A DNA stretch of 64,000 bases from Candidatus Woesebacteria bacterium GW2011_GWB1_38_8b (GCA_000993115.1 LBVN01000007.1:3587-67586), one strand, 5' to 3'; shown: positions 1,315 through 41,951, counted from the stretch's first letter. Program-made: numbers and translations. Notes: generated by a model from the sequence alone, not told the origin.

Positions 1315-1716
1315 TTACTTTGTGAGCCAATAAAAGAATGAGGTTATGAGCGAAATAATAAAAGAAAATCCAACGTACGCATAAAACCCCGGTAGATTAA
1401 TTTGAGGGATGTCTATCCAAACGTTGTTAAAACCGGAGAATAAAAATCCGGTAACCCGAAAATCTTTAATTATAAGAGTTACTATAAATAGAACTATTGC
1501 CGAAGACACCCAGCGAAAAAGACCAAATGTAACCAAGTTTAGCGGGAGAAGCAAAATATTTATGACTGGTTTCGCGAGAAGTGAAACCAAAGCCATTACA
1601 ATACCTGTGAGAAACAAGGTTTTGTAATTATTCCCGAAAACCATACCGGTTGCCAGCTTTGATGCGATATATATTGCAAACGTATCAATTACGAAGTGTC
1701 GTAAAAGGCCTTTCAT
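1315..1716 (-). CDS. small 4-TM membrane protein, phage-holin-4 / DUF360 (YvlD-like) family
   Basis: Family-like sequence begins at MKGLLRHFVIDTFAIYIASKLATG (ATG at 1714-1716). The ORF-track version (to 1866) gains 50 extra residues by reading through repeat copy A. Confidence 0.6.
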   Translation of the reverse strand: MKGLLRHFVIDTFAIYIASKLATGMVFGNNYKTLFLTGIVMALVSLLAKPVINILLLPLNLVTFGLFRWVSSAIVLFIVTLIIKDFRVTGFLFSGFNNVWIDIPQINLPGFYAYVGFSFIISLITSFFYWLTK

Positions 1717-1739
1717 ATATTTAATATAGCAAATTATAA

Positions 1740-1866
1740 CAGTTTCGAGAAAACCACGGGTGGTAGCCCTTGGATGAATCGAACCTGATATGTCATCCTC
1801 CTTTGGAGGTTTCGTTCGCAGGAAGCGAACTGGAAACCACGTCTGGAAGGACGTGGAGGATGTCAT
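1740..1866 (-). repeat. structured repeat element, copy A (127 nt), between the uvrC stop and the DUF360 gene
   Basis: Positions 1740-1810 are identical over 71 nt to 2023-2093. The remainder is related but holds an extra hairpin, CCACGTC-tggaag-GACGTGG. On the minus strand the element starts with ATGACATCCTCC and contains GGAGGATGACAT, a 12-nt imperfect inverted repeat. Confidence 0.85.
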
Positions 1867-1870
1867 TAGC

Positions 1871-3325
1871 TTATTTAATTATACCAACAAGATTCCGCTT
1901 TATTAAAATGTGATGGTAGCGTCGGGCAAATCTATGTGCTTCATTTCTTATTTTTTGTACAAAATTCAAAGCAGGACCTCTTTTTAGCTTCACTAAAACA
2001 TATTCACTCTGATTTTTTATATCAGTTTCGAGAAAACCACGGGTGGTAGCCCTTGGATGAATCGAACCTGATATGTCATCCTCCTTTGGAGGTAGCGTTC
2101 GCTGAATGCGAACGGACGGTGAGGATGTCATAAAAACAAGAGTTTCTTCGCGTTTCGCGATTCCGACAACAGGAATGTTGTGGCTTTTAAAGACACTGTT
2201 AAATTTTGAAACTTGACCTTTTCCCCCATCTACAATAATTAGATCAGGTCTCCCCCACTTAGTAAGATAACGGACCCTTCTTTTTGCAACTTCTAAAAGA
2301 GAGTCGGTATCGCTGTTTCCTTTTGTCTGTCTTATCCTAAAATGCCGGTAAAAACTTTTATCTGCAACTCCGTTTATAAAAGTAACCATTGAAGCGGTTG
2401 GAAAATTTCCTGAAATATGAGCGATATCATAACACTCGATTCTTTTAAGATTGTCAATTTTGTAATAAATATTTACTAACTTCTGAAGCCGGTTTATTTC
2501 GTTATCAATTATATCTTCAATTAAATTTGGATTCTCAAAATATCCGGATGGCGCTTCGTGTGAGTGGATAATATAGTTTATTGCATCAATTTTTTCTTTA
2601 TAAAACGAAGCGTTTTCAAAATCTTCTCTCTGAGATGTCTGTTTCATCTCTTTTTCAAACTCCAGCAGTAGATTATTAACCTTACCATTTAAAGCTTTTT
2701 TCAAATAATCAATATTTTTTTTATATTGCAATTCGAGTGTGTGTTTTTGTTTTTCATCAGTACATTTGGCTATATTACTTGGGCAAGGATTACAAAGTCC
2801 GATATGGGAGTAGAAGCATGGCCTGACATCTTGTTTGTGCACTGCATAGGGAAAAATTCTACGAAATGTTTTCAATACGATATGAACGTTTTTACCAGAT
2901 AAAAAAGGACCGTAAGTAATGCCTTTTATATTTCCCAAATCACTTTTTCTTGCTGTTTTGACCCAGGGATATTTATCTTTGACTATCACAATATATAACG
3001 GAGTTTTATCGTCTTTAAGTTGAATGTTATATTTTGGCATATATTTTTTAACCAAAAATGATTCCAAAAGGAGGGACTCAATTTCGGAATTGACAACAAT
3101 TATTCCGAAAGTTTTAGTGTTTCTAACAAGTTCAGTTGTTTTTGTTCCGAGATTTGTTCCTAAATAACTTTTCAGCCTGTTTTTTAAACTCCTGGATTTT
3201 CCGACGTACAAAACCAAACTATGGGAGTCATAAAACAAATAAATACCGGGAAGCTCAGGACACAAAGAGACGTTTTCGAGGTTAAATGATTTTTTCTTTA
3301 GAATGTTTTTTATAACTTCACTCAT
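1871..3325 (-). CDS. uvrC: excinuclease ABC subunit C carrying a 36-codon insertion and lacking the C-terminal (HhH)2 domain
   Basis: GIY-YIG N-terminus (PGIYLFYDSHSLVLYVGKSRSLKNRLKSY), a UVR-like segment, the endonuclease region (RIECYDIAHISG) and IRNEAHRFA. The gene ends 17 aa after HRFA. The 4-nt ATGA overlap with the upstream gene suggests an operon. Confidence 0.85.
   Translation of the reverse strand: MSEVIKNILKKKSFNLENVSLCPELPGIYLFYDSHSLVLYVGKSRSLKNRLKSYLGTNLGTKTTELVRNTKTFGIIVVNSEIESLLLESFLVKKYMPKYNIQLKDDKTPLYIVIVKDKYPWVKTARKSDLGNIKGITYGPFLSGKNVHIVLKTFRRIFPYAVHKQDVRPCFYSHIGLCNPCPSNIAKCTDEKQKHTLELQYKKNIDYLKKALNGKVNNLLLEFEKEMKQTSQREDFENASFYKEKIDAINYIIHSHEAPSGYFENPNLIEDIIDNEINRLQKLVNIYYKIDNLKRIECYDIAHISGNFPTASMVTFINGVADKSFYRHFRIRQTKGNSDTDSLLEVAKRRVRYLTKWGRPDLIIVDGGKGQVSKFNSVFKSHNIPVVGIAKREETLVFMTSSPSVRIQRTLPPKEDDISGSIHPRATTRGFLETDIKNQSEYVLVKLKRGPALNFVQKIRNEAHRFARRYHHILIKRNLVGIIK
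2024..2131 (-). repeat. structured repeat element, copy B (108-109 nt), in frame inside uvrC
   Basis: It shares the 71-nt core with copy A and is translated as MTSSPSVRIQRTLPPKEDDISGSIHPRATTRGFLET. Without these 36 codons the GIAKRE...EAHRF spacing is 39 aa, against 40 aa in my recalled B. subtilis UvrC sequence. Confidence 0.85.
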
Positions 3326-5133: not shown

Positions 5134-8033
5134 TAAGGTGTTTTTTTAAATACTGCCCCGTGTATGAGTTTTTCTCTTTAATTATATCCGAAACGGTTCC
5201 GGCTGCTACAACATTTCCACCGTTTTCCCCGCCTCCGGGACCAAGGTCAATAATCCAATCGGCATTTTTAACGACGTCTAAATTATGCTCTATTACAAAA
5301 ACACTGTTACCTCTTGATACCAAAACTTTAAGGACATAAAGAAGCTTTCGGATGTCGTCTAAGTGAAGTCCAGTAGTGGGTTCATCTAAGATGTAAACTG
5401 ATTTACCAGCCTCTCTTTTTGATAATTCCGAAGACAGCTTGATTCTTTGGGCTTCTCCTCCGGAAAGAGTCGTCGCGGATTGTCCAAGCTGCATATATCC
5501 AAGCCCGACTTCCTTTAAAGTTTCGAGTTTTTTATAAACAGGTACAAAACTATGGAAAAACTCAAGCGCTTCATCGACTGTAAGCGCCAGAACTTCGGCG
5601 ATATTCTTACCCCGATAAGATACTTCCAAAGTCTGTGAGTTATAACGCGTTCCTTTACAAACTTCGCATTTAACCCAAATGTCGCTCATAAACTGCATTT
5701 CAATTTTAGTTTCGCCCTGACCTTCACAGGCTTCACAGCGTCCCCCTTTTACGTTAAAAGAAAATCTTCCCTTCTTAAATCCAAGTGACCTTGCCTCTCT
5801 TGTTTCGGAATACAAATCGCGAATTAAATCAAAGACTTTAGTGTAAGTTGCGGGATTACTTCTAGGAGTCCTTCCGATAGGAGATTGGTCAATTAATATT
5901 ACTTTCTCGATGAATTCGTTCCCATACAGTTCATTATATTTTGACTGCGTAATTCTTGAATTTTTATTAATGGTTTTAAATAATGCAGGATAAAGAGATT
6001 CGACTAAAAGCGTAGATTTTCCTGAACCGGATACACCCGTAATAACAACATATTTTGAAAGAGGGAAGCTTACATCGATATTTTTTAGATTATACTGCGA
6101 GCAGCCTGTAAGCGTAATTGAAGAGGGAGGTAAAAAATCGGTTGTTAAATTTTGATTTTTGTTATTTTCTGCATTTTTTATTTTACCTACTTCAACCTTC
6201 TTTTTCCCCGACAGATATTGTCCCGTAAGTGATTTGGGGTCTTTTTCTATTTCAAGAGCTGTCCCTTGTGAAACAACTTCTCCGCCGTATTTTCCCGCAC
6301 CAGGCCCAAAATCAACAACGTGGTCAGCGTGGCGAATCATATCCTCATCGTGTTCAACTACTATAACCGTATTACCAAGTTCCTTTAACTTTTTTAAAGT
6401 GCTTATTAGTTTATCGTTATCTTTTTGATGAAGTCCTATGGTTGGCTCATCCAAAACGTACAATACACCTGTTAAACCCGAGCCTATTTGGCTTGCCAAT
6501 CTGATTCTTTGTGCTTCTCCTCCAGACAGCGTTCCTGAAGTTCTTGAAAGAGATAAATAATCAAGTCCGACTTCGATTAAAAACAAGAGTCTGTCATGAA
6601 TCTCTTTTAATATAAGTTTTCCGATTTCTTTTTCCCGCGAGTTAAGAATCGGTTTTTCTATAAGAGAATTAATCCAATCCAAAGTTTGTGATATTGAAAC
6701 GACAGTTATGTCGTGAATAGAGCGGTTTTCTACAGTAATTCCCAAGATTTCCTTTTTAAGTCGTGTCCCTGCACATGTGGGGCAAATTATTTCTTTCATG
6801 TATTTAAGAGTTATTTCGCGCACCATCTCCGAGCTTGTAGTAGCATAGCGCTCTTCCAATACATTCAGAATTCCCTTAAATGGTTCATAAATTTGAGTTT
6901 CCCTACCGAATCGGTTTGTACCGTGAACCTCATAAATCCGATCCCCCGTACCATTTAGAAGCAATTTTATTTTTTCATCGTCGAGTGTTTTTAAAGGTAC
7001 TCTTGTTTCAACTGAGTTTTCTTCGCAAAATGCCAAAATTAGCCTTGAAAACCAGGTTTCATGCTCAAACATATTTGAAAAAGGAAGAATTGCACCTTCT
7101 GTTATAGAAAGTTCCCATGAAAAAACGCTTTCTGGGTCGACTTTCAAAACATGACCGATACCCGAGCATTCGAAACAAGCTCCGTGGGGTGAATTAAAAG
7201 AAAAAGATCTCGGCTCTATTTCCGGAATTTGAACATTGTCTATCGGACAAGCAAATTTTTCACTGAATAAATGATCCTCAAATTCTTTCGGGGTTACGGG
7301 AATTTCTAAAGAATTATCTTTAATGTGAGAAATTATTGCCAGTCCGTCGGAAAGCTTAAGTGTTTGATCAAGCGTTTCGAGCAGTCTTGATTCCAGGTTT
7401 AACCTAAAAACTTCATTTTTAAAATCTTTTTTGGAAAGTGAAAATTTATCAATGACAACTTCAATTGAATGCTTATTGGTTTTTATTAAATACAAGTCTT
7501 CATTAAGCCCTCTAATCTGCCCGTCAACTCTTATTTGGGAATAACCTTTTGCTTTGAGATTAACTAGAAGCTGAGAAAACTCTCCTTTTTTATCTTTTAC
7601 AATCGGAGACAGAACCAAAAACCTAATCGTAGGATTTAAATTTAGCTCTTTTTCTATAAGTTTTACTACCGAGATCTTGATTTCGTCAACAGTTTGAGTT
7701 GAAATTTCACGACCGCAAACAGGACAGTGTGGATGCCCTATTCTTGCAAACAAAAGCCTTAAATAATCGTAGATTTCCGTCACGGTTCCGACAGTTGAAC
7801 GCGGATTTTTAGAAGTCGTTTTTTGATCGATAGAAATTGCCGGAGATAATCCTTCTATCGAATCAACATCTGGCTTTTCCATTATTCCCAAAAACTGTCT
7901 GGCATAAGTCGACAAGCTTTCTACATAGCGCCGTTGGCCTTCGGCATAAATAGTGTCGAATATCCAGATTAATGTTTTTTAAATTGTGCTGACGGGCACC
8001 TCTTATTTTTATTTGTTGATTTGCAATTTCCAT
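5123..8033 (-). pseudogene. uvrA: excinuclease ABC subunit A, disrupted: N-terminal Walker A segment deleted and frameshifted
   Basis: ORF 5123-7915 is UvrA from STYARQFLGIMEKPDVDSIEGLSPAISIDQK onward. The frame is open to 7957 as DTIYAEGQRRYVESL. A separate frame (8033-7959) encodes MEIANQQIKIRGARQHNLKNINLDI. The segment expected between them (about 21 aa, containing GxSGSGKS) is absent. Confidence 0.8.
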
Positions 8034-8131: not shown

Positions 8132-10113
8132 TTAAACTGCTTAATTTTATCCCTAAATGCAATCGCAAGTTCAAAGTTCAAATCATCTGCGGCTGTGCGC
8201 ATTTCCCGACGTAACTTTGCAATAAGCTTTTTCTGCTCCATTGGGGTTAAACTTGACGATTCAAAATCAAGCTTCCTGGTCGAAACTTTCAGTAACTTTA
8301 TTTCTTAAGGGTTTTTGAATTGAAGTCGGAGTAATATTGTGAATTTTATTATATTCGACCTGATATGCTCGTCTTCTGTCTATTTCTGATAAAGCGGCTT
8401 CGATTGATTTCGTTCTTTTGTCTGCATATAAAATAACTTTGCCTTCAACGTGTCTGGCGGCGCGTCCCATTGTCTGGATTAAACTTACGCGGCTTCTTAA
8501 AAACCCTTCCTTGTCTGCATCTAAAATTGCAACCAAAGAAACTTCAGGAAGATCTAGTCCTTCACGGAGTAAATTAACTCCAACTATTACATCAAATTTA
8601 CCTCTTCTTAAGTTATCCAGAATGTCTGTTCGTTCCAAGGTATCAATATCCGAGTGCAAATAATTTACTTTTATTCCTTGCCCCCCAAGATATTCTGATA
8701 AATCTTCTGCGGTTTTTTTTGTTAAGGTTGTTACCAAAGTTCTCTGACCTTTTTTTGTGATTTTTATTATTTCTTCTATAACATCTTTTACCTGATTTTT
8801 AATCGGTCTTATTTCAACCAACGGGTCCGGAATTCCGGTTGGCCTTACAAGTTGTTCGGTAACTCCATTTTCTTTTGGGTTATTGTTATATGCGTTGGCA
8901 GCCGACTGGTAAGCATTATTTAATTCCCATTCGTCGGGAGTTGCACTTGTGGCAATAAAACGTGGAATTCTTCTTATAAATTCCTCAAATTTTAAAGGGC
9001 GGTTGTCAATTGCAGCAGGAAGCCTGAAGCCGTAATCGATTAATGTTTTTTTACGAGATAAATCTCCTGCGTACATACCCCGTACTTGTGGAAAGGTAAT
9101 ATGACTCTCGTCGGCAACAAGTAGCCATTTATCTCCGAAAGACTTCTTAAAATAGTCCAGGAGCGAGTAAGGGGCATCTCCGGGGTTTCTTCCGTCGAAA
9201 TATCTTGAGTAATTTTCAATACCTTTGACATAGCCTACTTCGGAAAGCATTTCAAGGTCATACTTTACGCGTTGAGAAATTCTTTGGGCTTCGATAAACT
9301 TTCCTTCCGAATTAAACAAATCTACCTGTCTTTGTAGATCGCTTTTAATATTTGCAATGGCGCCTTTATTTTGTAAAGGGTCAGTGATGAAGTGTTTAGC
9401 CGGGTACAAAACATAATTTGTTAATTTCCCCTTTGCCTTGGGTGCTGATGGAGTTAAAATTTTGGTTCCGAAAGATGAAATTAATCCAAAATATTATTAT
9501 TTTCCCATTCGGTGTTGTGGTGAAAGGTAAAATGAGGGTAGTTTTTCTTAACCACATCAATTAAATATCCGCCAATAAAATGGATATCCTTTAAGCCGTT
9601 AACGGAAAAATTCTCCAAAGCCCGGTCCAGCATGCTTTTACCATTAACTTTAGTAAAACCTTTAGGAACCTTGGCAGAATAAGGCATTATCCTGTTTCCC
9701 CGCCCTGCTCCAATAATTATTATTAATAAATTTGTCGTTGCACCCAGCCTGAGTTTGTCTATTAAATCATTTATGTCGGAATCTTTTTCGATATAGGTAT
9801 CGGTTGAAGGAATATAAGCTTCGGGCTGGTAATAATCATAGTACGAAACAAAATAACTGACAGCATTTTCAGGAAAAAAATCCCGGAATTCCTGGTAAAG
9901 TTGGGCGGCTAGGGTTTTATTGTGTGAAAGTATTAAAGTTGGAAGCTGCGTTCTTTCAATTACGTTTGCAATCGTAAAAGTTTTACCGGAACCCGTAACA
10001 CCCAAAAGAACCTGATTATCAATACCCCGTGATATGTTTTTGGAAAGCTTTTCAACTGCATTTTTTTGGTCTTCAATAAGATCGTATTCAGATTTTATTT
10101 TAAATTTGTTCAT
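8128..10113 (-). pseudogene. uvrB: excinuclease ABC subunit B, disrupted: internal replacement, frame change and 3' frameshift
   Basis: 9724-10113 encodes the UvrB N-terminus ([10 protein letters not shown]...[10 protein letters not shown]...RLGATTNLL). 8267-9480 encodes UvrB from about KILTPS...YPAKHFITDP to the helicase C-terminus, in a different frame. The UVR domain (MEQKKLIAKLRREMRTAADDLNFELAIAFRDKIKQFN) is in a third frame and ends at 8128. Confidence 0.8.
9481..9723 (-). other. 5' fragment of a nucleotidyltransferase (NTP_transferase, LicC/MobA-like) gene embedded in uvrB
   Basis: (L)[80 protein letters not shown] matches the N-terminal roughly 80 aa of sugar-phosphate/choline-phosphate nucleotidyltransferases (GxGxR signature). 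It is fused in frame to UvrB residue 130 and ends in a stop. Confidence 0.65.
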
Positions 10114-18778: not shown

Positions 18779-19394
18779 CATTCTAACTGTGTGGCGATAA
18801 AGAAATCAAGAAGGGATCTTAAATCGCCCTTGCCGGTTTTTGCTTCAACATCAAGCTCTGATAATTTTTCTACCATAGCTTTAATATCATTTTCAGAGAA
18901 ACCTTCAGCTTGTGATTGTAGTCGCGAATAAATCGCTGAGATAGTAAATGAAAAACAAGTTCAACAGGTTCAACTTTTACAACCTCGTTTAAAAGATCCA
19001 TGGCATTTTTCGCATTTTTAGATTTTAGCGAATCCAAAAACTTCCATATTATTTTCGGTAAAGTGTAACTCTCAATTTTTAAGTCTTTTCCAAAATATTT
19101 TATTTTTGAAGCAGGAACTGCATTCTCGGTAATTACACATAGAACTAAATTATCATGGGTCAAGTTTTTATTTATAGAATCAAGATCTTTATTGGATAAA
19201 AGTGATAATTTTTCGATAAGTATAAACTTCTTGTTGAGAAAAAGATCATCAGCTCGGAGTTCGTTATCGATTTTTGTTGGTGAGTCTGATATTTTTGAAA
19301 TAATGTAGGATTTTTCCTTCGCGCTGTCGATAAGCTTTTTAATTCTTAAACTGACTTTTTCCGAATCATCGCCAGTTATTAAAATTACTTTCAT
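18779..19394 (-). CDS. holA: DNA polymerase III delta subunit-like protein (short), interrupted by a frameshift
   Basis: The N-terminal ORF 18870-19394 looks delta-like. A second frame, open over 18779-18960, encodes ...SRLQSQAEGFSENDIKAMVEKLSELDVEAKTGKGDLRSLLDFFIATQLE, a typical delta C-terminus. A single indel around 18925-18945 would join them into about 204 aa. Confidence 0.5.
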
Positions 19395-31920: not shown

Positions 31921-32283
31921 ATGGATAAGCCTCCTGCCTTGGTTAAGAAAGACAGATTTATTATTATATTTTACGTACTTTACTTCGGTTGGCTTCTTTT
32001 GACCACCTATTTAAGCCGAGACGATTTTTATAATAATTTACTCATATCTTTTGTAGTTATGATTTACTTTATATTTCTAAACGAAACTTTTGATCTGTTT
32101 TTGTTTTTGGGTATTACTCTCCTTTCATATTACTTGATGGGTAAGCTTTATGGTTATCCCGGTATCGTATTTACGCTAGAGTCTATAAAAACAATGCCTC
32201 TTTGGATTTATATTTCTTGGGGTTTTACAGCAGTTGCTCTTAAGAAACTTTTTTCAATGATTATAAGAAGGGTTGAAATATAA
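31921..32283 (+). CDS. hypothetical 4-TM membrane protein
   Basis: 120-aa hydrophobic ORF with no recognised family. Confidence 0.5.
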   Translation: MDKPPALVKKDRFIIIFYVLYFGWLLLTTYLSRDDFYNNLLISFVVMIYFIFLNETFDLFLFLGITLLSYYLMGKLYGYPGIVFTLESIKTMPLWIYISWGFTAVALKKLFSMIIRRVEI

Positions 32284-35909: not shown

Positions 35910-36302
35910 ATGGGAGAAAGAGATGAAGATGGTTTTGACTTTAGATTAATGTTTGTAACTACAGCATTTGCTGCTGGCATAATTGTAATACTTTATGCAA
36001 ATCAAAATAGAAGAAGAGATCTTAACTCTTTTAATCAACCCGTCATCCAATCAGTCTCCGAACCTCCTGATTATGGATTACAATGGAATTGGGATTGTAC
36101 CAATATCGATCCCGAACACGGAAGACCTAATTTTTATAGGGCAGTATTGTTTGCGGGAGATCGTAGGATTGTTGAACCGGGACCATATAAATATTTTGCT
36201 GGACCAAATAACCCAAGTCCCGATAAAAGCGAAAAAACTATCTACGATATGAATCAAATGAAACTCGTATACCTTGATGACACAATCTGTGTCGATCCGT
36301 AA
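35910..36302 (+). CDS. hypothetical membrane-anchored protein
   Basis: 130-aa ORF with one TM segment and no recognised family. Confidence 0.4.
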   Translation: MGERDEDGFDFRLMFVTTAFAAGIIVILYANQNRRRDLNSFNQPVIQSVSEPPDYGLQWNWDCTNIDPEHGRPNFYRAVLFAGDRRIVEPGPYKYFAGPNNPSPDKSEKTIYDMNQMKLVYLDDTICVDP

Positions 36303-41039: not shown

Positions 41040-41507
41040 TTATACAGTTCTCAAAATCAAATAAACAATAATTAAAAATAAAAATACATATACGGTTATA
41101 TTATAGACGAACTTTGTAGGATCATTTTTTTCTTTTATAAGTTTCTGAAAACCCATGCCCAGTAGATAATAAATCACTAAGTTAACAAAAATTATTAAAA
41201 TAAAACTAATAATTACAGGTAAAGTAAAAGGTAAATATTTTATAATACTTCCCAATACAATGTACCCGGGTAAGCTGGTCAAAGTATAAATATAAATTCC
41301 AGCGAGTGTACAGACTTGTCGACCACCCAAATTTATACAAAAAGTCGTATTAAAAGCCGGAATTATTTTATAAATTAAATAAAGAATCAACCCTAAAAAT
41401 AAAGACAAAACATATGTTGTAGGTAGCAATAATTTATAATTATTTTTTAGTTTTGTTCTAAGTGTTTTAAAGTTTTTAATTTTTCCAACCATGTTTATAT
41501 TATACAT
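41040..41507 (-). CDS. hypothetical polytopic membrane protein
   Basis: 155 aa with about 4 TM segments. Its start abuts the stop of the upstream gene. Confidence 0.5.
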   Translation of the reverse strand: MYNINMVGKIKNFKTLRTKLKNNYKLLLPTTYVLSLFLGLILYLIYKIIPAFNTTFCINLGGRQVCTLAGIYIYTLTSLPGYIVLGSIIKYLPFTLPVIISFILIIFVNLVIYYLLGMGFQKLIKEKNDPTKFVYNITVYVFLFLIIVYLILRTV

Positions 41508-41951
41508 TCAAAACTTACTTTTAATTTTATTAATAAATATATTGGTTGCAATGAAAAAAACACAGTTATATAAAAACCCTGATACAATTAACTTTCCGGC
41601 TGAAAAAGAATAAATTGAATAAGGAATACCGACTGAGACTGGTGGGTTTTTCCAAAAGAAAATTGATAACACGAAATACTGTGCCACTGCAGTTACAAAC
41701 ACGATAAATAAAGAAATTACCAATGTTCTCAAAACACCTTCCTTCATAAAATCCATAACAAATCTTTTATCGGTTGAGAAATTTGCCAAGCCATAAAATA
41801 TTATAATAGTTACACCTGCGAGAATAATTAAAATCTTTTCCCAAAAGCCAGGTGTCGGTCCGTTTGTGAAAAAAGCATAGTAAATTATGGCTAAAAAAAT
41901 AGAAAATGGATATGAATTGCGTTTAAAAAGTCCAATTATATCTTTCCCCAT
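41508..41951 (-). CDS. hypothetical polytopic membrane protein
   Basis: 147 aa with about 4 TM segments. Confidence 0.5.
   Translation of the reverse strand: MGKDIIGLFKRNSYPFSIFLAIIYYAFFTNGPTPGFWEKILIILAGVTIIIFYGLANFSTDKRFVMDFMKEGVLRTLVISLFIVFVTAVAQYFVLSIFFWKNPPVSVGIPYSIYSFSAGKLIVSGFLYNCVFFIATNIFINKIKSKF

What the first reader, a model, noticed from the sequence alone, without database searches (positions are those of the whole stretch)
1740..2131. Structured 109-127 nt repeat, two direct copies 283 bp apart, one an in-frame 36-codon insertion inside uvrC
Positions 1740-1810 and 2023-2093 are identical over 71 nt. The remaining 56 nt (copy A) and 38 nt (copy B) are related; A has 18 extra nt, so the length difference keeps the reading frame. 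On the gene (minus) strand each copy starts with ATGACATCC. Its 5' 12-mer can pair with an internal GGAGGATGACAT (12 bp with one A-A mismatch). That long pairing competes with two local hairpins, CCTCC-AAA-GGAGG and GGATGA-15 nt-TCATCC. A GTTCGC/GCGAAC hairpin keeps its stem in both copies, while its 5-nt loop differs at 3 positions. The conserved 3' tail, CAGGTTCGATTCATCCAAGGGCTACCA, looks like a tRNA T-loop plus acceptor strand plus CCA, yet none of the four real tRNAs here encodes CCA. Copy B interrupts UvrC between REETLVF and DIKNQSEY. Removing it restores the canonical spacing to the EAHRFA motif. Copy A is intergenic, but the same stop-free frame runs from its ATG straight into the next gene, giving a 50-aa N-terminal extension. 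So the element is open and in frame with a host ORF in both contexts. The only precedent I know is the Rickettsia palindromic elements, which insert in frame into genes. There are no terminal inverted repeats at the outer ends, no clear target duplication and no transposase nearby. It could be a new mobile or structured-RNA element.
Basis: partly seen in the sequence, partly recalled or inferred. Interest (0 to 1): 0.8.

Follow-up and report, generated by a model that had tools for sequence, protein, structure and literature searches.

The report
Gene-less IS200/IS605 mini-transposon inside uvrC
The repeat is two copies of a tiny, gene-less mobile element of the well-known IS200/IS605 transposon family in a Woesebacteria (CPR) genome; one copy landed in frame in a surface loop of the repair gene uvrC, which is a neat case but not a new kind of element.

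Summary
Window 1738-1866 (copy A, 129 nt) and 2021-2131 (copy B, 111 nt) are direct repeats, identical over 1740-1810. At least 8 independent assemblies show the same arrangement.

The repeat belongs to a small family with copies in unrelated contexts in other Microgenomates contigs. Every copy lies directly 3' of TTAT (mostly TTTAT). None has terminal inverted repeats or a target duplication. Typical copies carry two subterminal hairpins that keep pairing through compensatory changes.

The right end, GGAAA-CC[hairpin]GG-AGGATGTCAT, matches the right end found just after tnpB genes in Klebsiella and haloarchaeal plasmids. A covariance model built only from six non-CPR right ends (three beside such tnpB genes) finds copy A's right end at E=1e-11.

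So this is a PATE-like, ORF-less IS200/IS605 element (fused left and right ends). Both sites are empty in a sister species. The uvrC site is also empty in a near-identical strain.

The tRNA/CCA resemblance falls in a variable hairpin and is spurious. In-frame openness is not a family trait. The 50-aa extension is an ORF-calling artefact.

No TnpA or TnpB was found in the sequence available. Verdict: new member of a known kind, of modest interest.

The parts
1733..1737 (+). ATTAT, the transposon-adjacent motif (target or left cleavage site, TTAT core) directly 5' of copy A. It is host DNA, not part of the element.
   Evidence: All 7 distinct copies are preceded by TTAT, and 5 of those 7 by TTTAT. 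The Klebsiella tnpB element has TTTAT at the same distance from its hairpin.
1738..1866 (+). Copy A, a complete 129-nt ORF-less IS200/IS605 element (PATE-like, fused left and right ends). It lies between uvrC and the holin_4_2-like membrane protein gene, with its top strand on the + strand.
   Evidence: Boundaries come from the family alignment. The family covariance model scores it 129 bits. The site is empty in the sister species L047.
1750..1773 (+). Left-end guide tetranucleotide AAAA (1750-1753) plus the left subterminal hairpin IP_L, CCACGGGTGGTAGCCCTTGG (1754-1773). The hairpin foot is 16 nt from the left cleavage site.
   Evidence: Three hairpin pairs change on both sides across copies. 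The Klebsiella left end has the same layout: TTTAT, 16 nt ending in AAAA, then the hairpin.
1774..1798 (+). Invariant core ATGAATCGAACCTGATATGTCATCC. TCGAA and CTG pair back to 1744-1752 (stem P1). ATGTCATCC can pair with the right-end tail.
   Evidence: This stretch is invariant in 7 copies. P1 covaries in the diverged L047 copy (TGTTCAA/TTGAACA).
1799..1831 (+). Variable middle. It holds a short hairpin CCTCC-TTT-GGAGG and an extra GTTCGC-AGGAA-GCGAAC hairpin found only in this species' copies (A and B).
   Evidence: Alignment A2 and the parse table.
1832..1866 (+). Right end. It consists of the guide GGAAA (GAAA), the hairpin IP_R CCACGTCTGGAAGGACGTGG (1837-1856) and the 10-nt tail AGGATGTCAT, which ends in the transposon-encoded motif TCAT.
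   Evidence: Model R2, built only from six non-CPR IS200/IS605-type right ends, scores it 41.3 bits, E=1.3e-11, ending exactly at 1866. IP_R has 3 pairs with changes on both sides.
2016..2020 (+). TTTAT, the transposon-adjacent motif 5' of copy B. It is host uvrC sequence, read on the antisense strand.
   Evidence: The empty allele L011 reads TTTTTGT|AAAAAC at the same place.
2021..2131 (+). Copy B, a 111-nt copy inserted antisense into uvrC. It is read as 37 in-frame codons (MTSSPSVRIQRTLPPKEDDISGSIHPRATTRGFLETD). The left end is intact and identical to copy A. The right-end guide and hairpin are lost (18-nt deletion plus substitutions), so the copy is probably immobile.
   Evidence: no parse of the right end. 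R2 scores it only 11.4 bits, E=0.64. The insertion is absent from P0129/P0133 (same 90% cluster), from the nine orthologues aligned, and by length from the other listed orthologues.
1871..3325 (-). uvrC (484 aa, GIY-YIG plus UvrC RNase H-like domain), the host gene of copy B.
   Evidence: In the AlphaFold2 model, residues 402-438 have pLDDT below 50, between confident strands 395-400 and 441-446.
1315..1716 (-). Holin_4_2-like membrane protein with a true length of 133 aa. The 183-aa ORF (1315-1866) annotated in some records adds 50 residues read through copy A and the short spacer downstream of it.
   Evidence: Gene calls of 133 aa in L012-L015 and L047. Sequences.

Best explanation
[quoted passage not shown] It is a PATE-like element: a left end (LE) and a right end (RE) fused with about 30-60 nt between them.

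**Anatomy of a complete copy, top strand = window + strand.**
- Host TT(T)AT, the transposon-adjacent motif, which is the left cleavage and target site.
- 16 nt ending in the guide AAAA.
- Subterminal hairpin IP_L.
- A conserved core.
- A variable middle hairpin.
- Guide GAAA.
- Subterminal hairpin IP_R.
- The 10-nt tail AGGATGTCAT, whose last four bases TCAT are the right cleavage site.

**How it moves (inferred).** Such elements move as single-stranded DNA by 'peel and paste'. A Y1 HUH transposase (TnpA), supplied in trans, binds the two hairpins. It finds the cleavage sites through pairing with the guide tetranucleotides. It excises a circle and re-inserts it 3' of a TTAT without duplicating the target.

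**History here.** Copy A inserted between uvrC and the next gene before the sampled strains diverged. Copy B sits antisense inside uvrC, 283 bp away. It shares the species-specific extra hairpin and an identical left half with copy A. It has since lost its right guide and hairpin, so it can probably no longer be excised.

**Why it persists in uvrC.** The copy is 111 nt long and the frame being read happens to be its only stop-free frame. It therefore adds a 37-residue, probably disordered loop between two beta-strands of the UvrC RNase H-like domain rather than breaking the gene.

**Shown versus inferred.** Shown: family membership of the ends, insertion polymorphism, lack of TIR and TSD, and hairpin covariation. 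Inferred: TnpA-mediated movement, the origin of B from A, and tolerance of the insertion by UvrC.
For: 1. **A family in unrelated contexts.** Copies occur in L002, L003/L006, L004, L009 and, more diverged, in L047. All lie directly 3' of TTAT, with unrelated right flanks, no TIR and no TSD.
2. **Insertion polymorphism.** UvrC of a strain in the same 90% cluster (P0133, L011) lacks copy B but has copy A. The sister species L047 lacks both. The nine orthologues aligned lack the insertion and the other 110 listed are about 430-507 aa.
3. **Hairpin covariation.** Both subterminal hairpins keep pairing through changes on both sides, 3 pairs each. 93.8% of cells are paired, against 28-49% when partners are slid by 1-3 columns.
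4. **IS608-like geometry and motifs.** IS608 has TTAC/AAAG at the left end and GAAT/TCAA at the right end, with the right cleavage site 10 nt from the hairpin foot (PMC3201880, PMC5934647). This family has TTAT/AAAA and GAAA/TCAT with a 10-nt tail.
5. **Matches beside tnpB genes.** blastn of the L004 copy hits its right-end part 8-21 nt downstream of Pfam-confirmed tnpB genes, on the same strand, in Klebsiella, Natrinema and Haloarcula plasmids. The Natrinema and Haloarcula right ends read GGAAA-CC[hairpin]GG-AGGATGTCAT, the same guide and tail as here.
6. **Guide and cleavage site covary across elements.** GAAT-TCAA occurs in IS608, Klebsiella and Halorussus. GAAA-TCAT occurs here, in Natrinema and in Haloarcula. 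GAAC-TCAG occurs in Allomeiothermus and in the HgcC consensus.
7. **Independent model test.** Covariance model R2, built only from six non-CPR right ends, finds copy A's right end at 41.3 bits, E=1.3e-11. It finds L004, L002, L009 and L006 at E=1e-14 to 8e-7. Each match ends exactly at the inferred boundary.
8. **Left-end agreement.** The Klebsiella element's left end has TTTAT, then 16 nt ending in AAAA, then the hairpin, as here. Its right junction and TTTAT target are confirmed by an IS-less plasmid.
9. **Literature.** ORF-less PATE-like elements with fused LE and RE are described for this IS family.
Against: - **No transposase found.** No TnpA (Y1) or TnpB gene turned up in the window. Pfam scans of 40 ORFs gave only housekeeping families. 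A tblastn with IS200 and IS608 TnpA sequences that I recalled from memory found nothing in 343 kb of related loci. The mobilising enzyme is therefore unidentified.
- **Low copy number.** There are only 2 copies in 64 kb.
- **Extra structure.** The conserved P1 stem around IP_L and the possible long-range pairing of the right-end tail with the core are not described for IS608. They could point to an RNA-level role.
- **One motif exception.** In the Haladaptatus copy, guide GAAT goes with TCAC.
- **The diverged copy is weakly tied in.** The L047 copy is not detected by R2, and its guide and motif pairing does not fit cleanly.
- **Weak BLAST statistics.** Single-hit E-values for the right-end similarity were only 0.09-4. 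The strength comes from position, architecture and the covariance model.
- **Mosaic similarity of B to A.** The left 71 nt are identical but the right 38 nt are much diverged. This suggests gene conversion or a third master copy rather than a simple recent hop from A.
Confidence: 0.85

Rival explanations
1. The element is primarily a structured small RNA. It could be an omega-RNA/sotRNA/HgcC-like transcript derived from an IS200/IS605 right end, kept for an RNA function such as guiding a TnpB in trans or a regulatory role. This overlaps with the main explanation rather than excluding it.
For: - Both strands fold far better than shuffles (z = -4.7 to -6.3).
- IP_R carries GNRA-type loops (GTAA or GGAA) in most copies.
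- The P1 stem covaries in L047.
- There is a weak full-length Rfam match to HgcC (15-19 bits, E = 0.45-0.8).
- HgcC and a haloarchaeal PATE-derived RNA share the RE-like tetraloop motif and are expressed (PMC4615843).
- PATEs are said often to encode omega-RNAs.
Against: - No expression data are available.
- Orientation relative to neighbouring genes is inconsistent: antisense in the window, sense in L004, between divergent or convergent genes elsewhere.
- No conserved promoter or terminator was seen.
- No TnpB was found in the sequence available.
- Wobble-pair asymmetry does not pick a strand (8 vs 5 cells).
- The HgcC score is far below the gathering threshold of 50 bits and appears only for A-type copies.
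Confidence: 0.15
2. This is a new class of in-frame, peptide-adding mobile element analogous to Rickettsia palindromic elements, selected to stay open in frame with host genes.
For: - Copy B is in frame and stop-free within uvrC.
- The minus-strand frame that starts with ATG is open in 5 of 7 distinct copies.
- The filled allele co-occurs with intact uvrA and uvrB in several assemblies.
Against: - The same frame has 1 stop in L002 and 3 stops in L003/L006.
- Element lengths of 113 nt occur (L004, L009), which are not multiples of three.
- Most copies are intergenic.
- In L006 a different frame supplies a gene's last 12 residues.
- Copy A's 'extension' is an ORF-calling artefact.
- The ends are IS200/IS605 ends.
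Confidence: 0.03
3. The element is tRNA-derived or tRNA-like (T-loop, acceptor strand and CCA), for example a tRNA-mimic RNA or a remnant of an integration site.
For: The minus strand of the window copies reads CAGGTTCGATTCATCCAAGGGCTACCA.
Against: - ARAGORN and the Rfam tRNA/tmRNA models find nothing there, even at E up to 10.
- The bases flanking TTCGATT do not form a T-stem, as read directly from the sequence.
- 'GGGCTACCA' is part of the variable IP_L hairpin. Other copies have CATGTAAACTGAACATGG or similar at that place.
Confidence: 0.01
4. The 283-bp direct duplication is an assembly artefact.
For: - Several contigs break inside the repeat (L012, L014, L015).
- One contig (L049) shows a B/A hybrid with the 283 bp missing.
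Against: - Seventeen contigs carry the exact 484-aa UvrC. Eight independent assemblies (megahit, SPAdes and scaffolds from ENA, NCBI and JGI) show both copies in place.
- The two copies differ by an 18-nt indel and about 9 substitutions.
Confidence: 0.01

Closest known systems
PATEs (palindrome-associated transposable elements): ORF-less derivatives of IS200/IS605 elements with fused left and right ends, described in haloarchaea and Geobacillus
   Same: - There is no ORF, no TIR and no TSD, and the size is about 110-130 nt.
- The left end has a guide and hairpin preceded by a TTTAT-type adjacent motif.
- The right end is GGAAN-CC[hairpin]GG-AGGATGTCAN', identical in guide and tail to the right ends of Natrinema and Haloarcula tnpB elements.
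   Different: - The host is a CPR bacterium (Candidatus Woesebacteria/Microgenomates).
- Copy number looks very low.
- No cognate TnpA or TnpB was seen in the sequence available.
- There is an extra P1 stem around the left hairpin.
- One copy is retained in frame inside a conserved repair gene.
IS608 (Helicobacter pylori), the mechanistic paradigm of IS200/IS605 single-strand transposition
   Same: - The target and left cleavage site lies outside the element. The right cleavage site is the last 4 nt, 10 nt after the hairpin foot.
- The guide tetranucleotide sits 5' of each hairpin.
- The motifs differ from IS608 only at the fourth, Watson-Crick position: AAAG/TTAC becomes AAAA/TTAT, and GAAT/TCAA becomes GAAA/TCAT.
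   Different: - IS608 is about 1.8 kb and carries tnpA and tnpB. Here there are no genes.
- The left spacing is 16 nt rather than 19 nt.
- The hairpin sequences are unrelated.
tnpB-only IS200/IS605 element in Klebsiella IncF plasmids (NZ_CP026161.1, between traT and traD)
   Same: - The adjacent motif TTTAT lies 16 nt from the left hairpin foot, and the left guide is AAAA.
- The right end is GGAAT-CC[hairpin]GG-AGGATGTCAA, directly after the tnpB stop codon.
- The right junction and the TTTAT target are confirmed against an IS-less plasmid.
   Different: - It is 1332 nt long and encodes TnpB.
- The right guide and motif are GAAT/TCAA.
- There is no similarity outside the end modules.
Rfam HgcC family RNA (RF00062) and haloarchaeal sotRNAs / PATE-derived RNA VNG_R0052
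   Same: - The overall layout is the same: hairpin, GAUGA..GAACC, then ...GGAAC-CC[hairpin]GG-AGGAGGUCAG.
- The literature links HgcC to the RE-like tetraloop of IS1341-type elements (PMC4615843).
   Different: - The score is only 15-19 bits against a gathering score of 50, and only for A-type copies.
- HgcC is archaeal.
- HgcC is defined as an expressed RNA, whereas expression here is unknown.
Rickettsia palindromic elements (RPE)
   Same: They are short structured repeats that can sit in frame inside protein genes and add a peptide segment.
   Different: - In-frame openness is not a family trait here.
- The ends here are IS200/IS605 ends.
- Homology to RPEs was not tested, because no RPE sequences were held.
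REP/BIME elements with RAYT (TnpA-REP)
   Same: They are short hairpin elements related to IS200/IS605 ends and acted on by a Y1 HUH enzyme supplied in trans.
   Different: - REPs are 20-40 nt single hairpins with a 5' GTAG-type motif, at high copy number and in inverted pairs.
- Here there are distinct left and right ends, with an adjacent motif and a transposon-encoded motif.

Membership tests
IS200/IS605 family (non-autonomous, PATE-like) | No terminal inverted repeats | tested here: met
   The 5' end AACAGTTTCGAG and the reverse complement of the 3' end, ATGACATCCTCC, are unrelated.
IS200/IS605 family (non-autonomous, PATE-like) | Insertion 3' of a specific AT-rich tetra- or pentanucleotide that stays in the left flank, with no target-site duplication | tested here: met
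   TTAT precedes all 7 distinct copies (TTTAT in 5 of them), and the right flanks are unrelated. The empty allele L011 keeps a T-run...GT at the junction, so the motif is host DNA. That last comparison is with a strain slightly diverged at DNA level, so it is suggestive rather than exact.
IS200/IS605 family (non-autonomous, PATE-like) | Subterminal imperfect hairpins at both ends, conserved as structure | tested here: met
   IP_L and IP_R each have 3 pairs changed on both sides, and 93-95% of cells are paired. L002 and L047 have a bulged T, like the extra-helical T noted for the IS608 right hairpin.
IS200/IS605 family (non-autonomous, PATE-like) | Guide tetranucleotide 5' of each hairpin matching its cleavage site; right cleavage site inside the element about 10 nt after the hairpin | tested here: met
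   The pairs are AAAA/TTAT and GAAA/TCAT, with a 10-nt tail (9 nt in L002). Across elements the right guide's 4th base and the motif's last base covary: T-A, A-T, C-G. There is one exception, Haladaptatus.
IS200/IS605 family (non-autonomous, PATE-like) | End sequences homologous to those of elements that carry tnpA or tnpB | tested here: met
   A covariance model built from six non-CPR right ends finds copy A at 41.3 bits (E=1.3e-11) and four other family members. Three of those six right ends lie directly after Pfam-confirmed tnpB genes.
IS200/IS605 family (non-autonomous, PATE-like) | Evidence of mobility (filled and empty sites) | tested here: met
   The uvrC site is empty in L011 (same 90% protein cluster). 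Both sites are empty in the sister species L047.
IS200/IS605 family (non-autonomous, PATE-like) | A Y1 HUH transposase (TnpA) in the same genome able to act in trans | tested here: inconclusive
   None was found in 40 window ORFs by Pfam, or in 343 kb of partly redundant loci by tblastn with recalled IS200 and IS608 TnpA sequences. The rest of the genome was not available.
IS200/IS605 family (non-autonomous, PATE-like) | Single-strand circle intermediate, precise excision, strand bias towards the lagging-strand template | not testable with these tools
   This needs experiments, or complete genomes with known replication direction.
Classical MITE (derived from a DDE transposon) | Terminal inverted repeats and a target-site duplication | tested here: not met
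   No TIR and no TSD in any copy.
tRNA / tRNA-like element | Cloverleaf or at least a T-arm plus acceptor stem, detected by tRNA models and conserved among copies | tested here: not met
   ARAGORN and Rfam RF00005 give no match at the copies. The 'acceptor-CCA' bases lie in a hairpin that varies between copies.
Rfam HgcC (RF00062) | Score at or above the family's gathering threshold (50 bits) | tested here: not met
   The scores are 15.3 and 19.3 bits, for A-type copies only. The resemblance in architecture is real, but membership is not established.
Rickettsia palindromic elements (RPE-like in-frame elements) | Copies are systematically in frame and stop-free within host ORFs | tested here: not met
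   Stops occur in the same frame in L002 and L003/L006, 113-nt copies exist, and most copies are intergenic.
Rickettsia palindromic elements (RPE-like in-frame elements) | Sequence homology to RPE families | not tested
   No RPE sequences or models were available in the tools used.

The most novel reading that the evidence does not exclude
The family could persist in streamlined CPR genomes that encode no TnpA or TnpB at all. In that case it would be a domesticated remnant kept for an RNA-level role (HgcC/sotRNA-like), or it would be mobilised by a transposase delivered by phages or host cells. The in-frame UvrC copy could then be a retained, functional loop rather than a tolerated scar.
Probability: 0.1. 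Interest if true: 0.5.

Novelty: new member of a known kind. Interest (0 to 1): 0.3.

Why it matters
- **Known biology, new host.** A striking-looking 'structured repeat inside uvrC' is ordinary transposon biology: a gene-less IS200/IS605 derivative. It extends the documented range of PATE-like elements to a Candidate Phyla Radiation lineage (Woesebacteria).
- **A clean natural case.** It offers filled and empty alleles of such an element tolerated in frame in a conserved DNA-repair enzyme.
- **Wide conservation of the right end.** The right-end module GGAAN-CC[hairpin]GG-AGGATGTCAN', with guide and motif covarying, is conserved from enterobacterial plasmids to haloarchaea, Thermales and CPR.
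- **Annotation.** The 183-aa 'integral membrane protein' and the 484-aa UvrC both contain element-encoded residues. These shared residues cause unrelated proteins to fall into one 90% protein cluster.

Tried and rejected
1. **Peptide search.** A search with the copy-A 42-aa translation found nothing. This negative is unreliable. The database holds only cluster representatives with a word index, and the exact peptide is in fact present (P0121).
2. **Genome-contig scan.** The pattern CCTTGGATGAATCGAACCTG gave only one chance hit. In hindsight the pattern included window-specific hairpin bases, so the negative says little.
3. **Viral-contig scans.** Three scans found no true copy.
4. **Rfam.** Gathering-threshold and E-value modes gave no significant family. 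The weak HgcC hit was first dismissed as noise. It was later understood as a distant architectural relative, via the IS200/IS605 right end.
5. **Hammerhead, twister, K-turn and group II domain V readings** of the motifs were considered by eye and dropped. The required consensus is absent.
6. **Strand assignment from G-U wobble asymmetry** was inconclusive.
7. **'Decaying repair pathway' idea.** I considered that uvrC is under relaxed selection because uvrA and uvrB are broken in the window. I rejected this as a general explanation, because other assemblies with the same uvrC insertion have intact uvrA and uvrB.
8. **Transposase search.** Searches for TnpA or TnpB in the window and loci found none.
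9. **Phage collection.** blastn against phages gave only chance hits.
Full report
**1. Observation**

The repeat is real. The repeat finder reports 1734-1830 and 2017-2113 as direct copies at 94% identity, spaced 283 bp. A 43-mer from the core occurs exactly twice in 64 kb, against 0 expected by chance. Either strand folds much better than shuffled sequence (z = -4.7 to -6.3).

With boundaries taken from the family alignment, copy A is 1738-1866 (129 nt) and copy B is 2021-2131 (111 nt). Both are about 50% GC in a 35% GC window. Copy B adds 37 codons to uvrC. Copy A's minus-strand frame runs into the next ORF.

**2. The repeat is a family**

A scan of metagenome contigs with an invariant 20-mer returned 9 loci, and 7 of them hold true copies.
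- L010 is the same locus as the window.
- L005 is the orthologue of copy A in another strain.
- L002, L003 (same as L006), L004 and L009 are copies in unrelated gene neighbourhoods of other CPR-type contigs.

A covariance model of the family found no third copy in the window. It did find a diverged copy in the sister species' contig, L047 18679-18797.

On the window + strand, the close copies (all except the diverged L047 copy and the truncated copy B) read:

TTAT | A(A/T)CAGTTTCGAGAAAA-CC[hairpin]GG-ATGAATCGAACCTGATATGTCATCC-[variable]-GGAAA-CC[hairpin]GG-AGGATGTCAT |

The right flanks are unrelated. There are no terminal inverted repeats and no target duplication. The two hairpins vary in sequence but keep pairing. 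Each has three pairs with changes on both sides. Overall 93.8% of cells are paired, against 28-49% when partners are slid by 1-3 columns.

**3. It is mobile**

The organism is Candidatus Woesebacteria (Microgenomates). NCBI records KKQ24693, KKQ87350 and KKQ43348 are this UvrC.

The listed UvrC orthologues are about 430-507 aa long. The nine that I aligned lack the insertion, which falls in a 10-residue variable stretch.

The same 90% cluster contains 451-aa UvrC proteins without the insertion. Their contig, L011, shows an empty site (...CTTGTTTTT|ACAAAAAAATCAG...) while copy A is present.

In the sister species (UvrC 66% identical, fully syntenic) both sites are empty. There the uvrC-to-membrane-protein spacer is 28 nt and the membrane protein is 133 aa. 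The '50-aa N-terminal extension' is therefore an ORF-calling artefact, although it is present in public annotation (P0121).

The arrangement with both copies occurs in at least 8 independent assemblies, and the exact 484-aa UvrC is on 17 contigs. It is not an assembly artefact.

**4. What kind of element**

The anatomy matches the IS200/IS605 paradigm, IS608.
- The target and left cleavage site (TTAC) lie outside the element.
- The right cleavage site (TCAA) consists of the last bases, 10 nt after the right hairpin.
- Each site is recognised by a guide tetranucleotide 5' of the hairpin foot: AAAG on the left and GAAT on the right (PMC3201880 and PMC5934647).

This family has TTAT with AAAA, and TCAT with GAAA, plus a 10-nt tail. 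That is the IS608 pattern with the fourth, Watson-Crick position swapped at both ends.

A blastn search of the L004 copy against plasmids hit its right-end part in 1019 records. In a Klebsiella IncF plasmid the match lies 8 nt after the stop codon of a tnpB gene, on the same strand. In Natrinema and Haloarcula plasmids it lies 18-21 nt after 'transposase' genes that Pfam identifies as TnpB.

The right ends compare as follows.

| Element | Right end |
|---|---|
| Klebsiella, Halorussus | GGAAT-CC[hairpin]GG-AGGATGTCAA |
| Natrinema, Haloarcula | GGAAA-CC[hairpin]GG-AGGATGTCAT |
| This family | GGAAA-CC[hairpin]GG-AGGATGTCAT (identical guide and tail to Natrinema and Haloarcula) |
| Allomeiothermus | GGAAC-CC[hairpin]GG-AGGATGTCAG |

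The guide's last base and the motif's last base covary, with one exception (Haladaptatus, GAAT with TCAC).

The Klebsiella element's left end reads TTTAT, then 16 nt ending in AAAA, then the hairpin, as in this family. An IS-less plasmid confirms its right junction and that it sits 3' of a TTTAT.

The formal test was a covariance model built only from six non-CPR right ends. It finds copy A's right end at 1832-1866 with 41.3 bits, E=1.3e-11. It finds the L004, L002, L009 and L006 copies at E=1e-14 to 8e-7. Every match ends exactly at the inferred boundary. Copy B scores only 11.4 bits, E=0.64.

The element is therefore an ORF-less IS200/IS605 derivative with fused left and right ends. The literature calls this kind a PATE-like element.

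The weak full-length Rfam hit to HgcC makes sense in this light. The HgcC consensus ends in GGAAC-CC[hairpin]GG-AGGAGGUCAG, and Gomes-Filho et al. already linked HgcC to the RE-like tetraloop of IS1341-type elements. The score is nevertheless far below the family threshold.

**5. Mechanism**

Shown:
- the ends, motifs and geometry;
- the filled and empty sites;
- the absence of TIR and TSD.

Inferred from established knowledge of the family:
- movement as single-stranded DNA by a Y1 HUH transposase acting in trans ('peel and paste');
- insertion 3' of TT(T)AT.

No TnpA or TnpB was found in 40 window ORFs. None was found in 343 kb of partly redundant related loci using a tblastn with TnpA sequences that I recalled from memory.

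Copy B shares with copy A the species-specific extra GTTCGC hairpin and an identical 71-nt left part. It lacks the right guide and hairpin (18-nt deletion) and differs at about 9 of 38 remaining positions. It probably derives from the copy A lineage, with later decay or partial gene conversion, and is now probably immobile.

**6. Why it sits in frame**

Of the six reading frames of copy B, only one is stop-free, and that is the frame read in uvrC. Together with its length of 111 nt, this lets the gene stay open.

AlphaFold2 (10-sequence alignment, mean pLDDT 78.7) places residues 402-438 as a loop with pLDDT below 50. The loop lies between confident strands 395-400 and 441-446, ahead of the helix that carries EAHRFA. 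This suggests a tolerated surface loop, but that is an inference.

Openness is not a family trait.
- The same frame has stops in L002 and L003/L006.
- L004 and L009 copies are 113 nt long.
- In L006 a different frame of the element supplies the last 12 residues of a 684-aa membrane protein.

**7. The tRNA resemblance**

No tRNA or tmRNA model matches the copies. The bases around TTCGATT do not form a T-stem. The 'acceptor plus CCA' is the window-specific sequence of the variable left hairpin. The resemblance is coincidental.

**8. Verdict**

It is a new member of a known kind, a PATE-like IS200/IS605 element in a CPR genome.

Interest is modest. What it offers is a tidy natural example of in-frame tolerance with filled and empty alleles, and a demonstration that the right-end module is conserved across very distant hosts.

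**9. Limits**

- The genome-contig scan used a poorly chosen pattern.
- The metagenome scan is not exhaustive. L055 and L057 carry both copies but were not returned.
- Copy number per genome and the presence of a transposase therefore remain open.

Noticed in passing
window 7958-7960, 8271/8272, 9435-9722, 10701/10702: The window is 100% identical to other assemblies of the same organism (L050, L052, L057) except for four discrete lesions in the SOS/repair cluster.
- A 59-nt deletion removes the first Walker A motif of uvrA and shifts the frame.
- A 41-nt deletion lies near the 3' end of uvrB.
- 313 nt of uvrB are replaced by 288 nt that encode the N-terminus of a nucleotidyltransferase.
- An in-frame 51-nt deletion lies in lexA.

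Two of the three deletion junctions show 1-3 nt of microhomology. In this assembly uvrA and uvrB are pseudogenes, while they are intact in assemblies carrying the identical uvrC insertion. It is unclear whether this is a real sub-population or an assembly problem.
   Followed up: partly
L010 (Ga0209210_1016515), junction corresponding to window 2127-2148: One metagenome contig has a 22-nt deletion (GTCATAAAAACAAGAGTTTCTT) that removes the last 5 nt of copy B plus 17 nt of uvrC. It shifts the uvrC frame and gives a 428-aa product, P0134.
   Followed up: partly
L049 1590-1710 (ENA ERZ27254746 k141_180945): One contig carries a hybrid of copies B and A. The 283 bp between them (the uvrC 3' end) is deleted, giving a 575-aa UvrC-membrane protein fusion, P0130. 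This is either recombination between the direct repeats or an assembly collapse.
   Followed up: partly
window 1315-1866 and 1871-3325; protein cluster of P0001: Public annotation (KKQ24694) calls the membrane protein at 183 aa, including 50 residues read through copy A and the short spacer downstream of it. Because copies A and B encode a shared 23-residue peptide, this unrelated membrane protein and UvrC fall into the same 90% protein cluster.
   Followed up: yes
L006 13816-13856 (same as L003): The element overlaps the 3' end of a 684-aa membrane protein gene. Its last 12 residues (DVLPALKSEVSF) and the stop codon are element-encoded, in a different frame from the one read in uvrC.
   Followed up: partly
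L047 18679-18797 (minus strand): A diverged family member sits in the sister species, about 150 nt upstream of an rve-type (DDE) transposase gene. Its two hairpins are nearly identical to each other (CGAGC-GTAA-GCTCG and CGACC-GTAA-GGTCG, each with a bulged T). Its right boundary and its guide and motif pairing are unclear.
   Followed up: partly
L059 1919-2537 (Halorussus limi plasmid NZ_CP096663.1); the same right end also in L065: An unannotated stretch of about 620 nt has an IS608-like left end (TTAC, 19 nt ending in AAAG, then a hairpin) and the right end GGAAT...AGGATGTCAA. It looks like a decayed tnpB element or a long PATE.
   Followed up: no
L060 vs L061 (Klebsiella IncF plasmids, traT-traD spacer): The plasmid with the tnpB element lacks 49 nt that lie between two TTTAT motifs in the IS-less plasmid. 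The insertion is thus associated with a small deletion between two copies of the target motif.
   Followed up: partly
L012, L014, L015 (contig ends at the position of window about 1750-1760): Several contigs of this organism end inside copy A. The repeat evidently breaks short-read assemblies.
   Followed up: no
window 18870-19394, 31921-32283, 35910-36302, 41040-41951: Five ORFs of 120-174 aa have no Pfam match. A 130-aa ORF at 19395-19787 matches a putative phage metallopeptidase family, PF18894.
   Followed up: no
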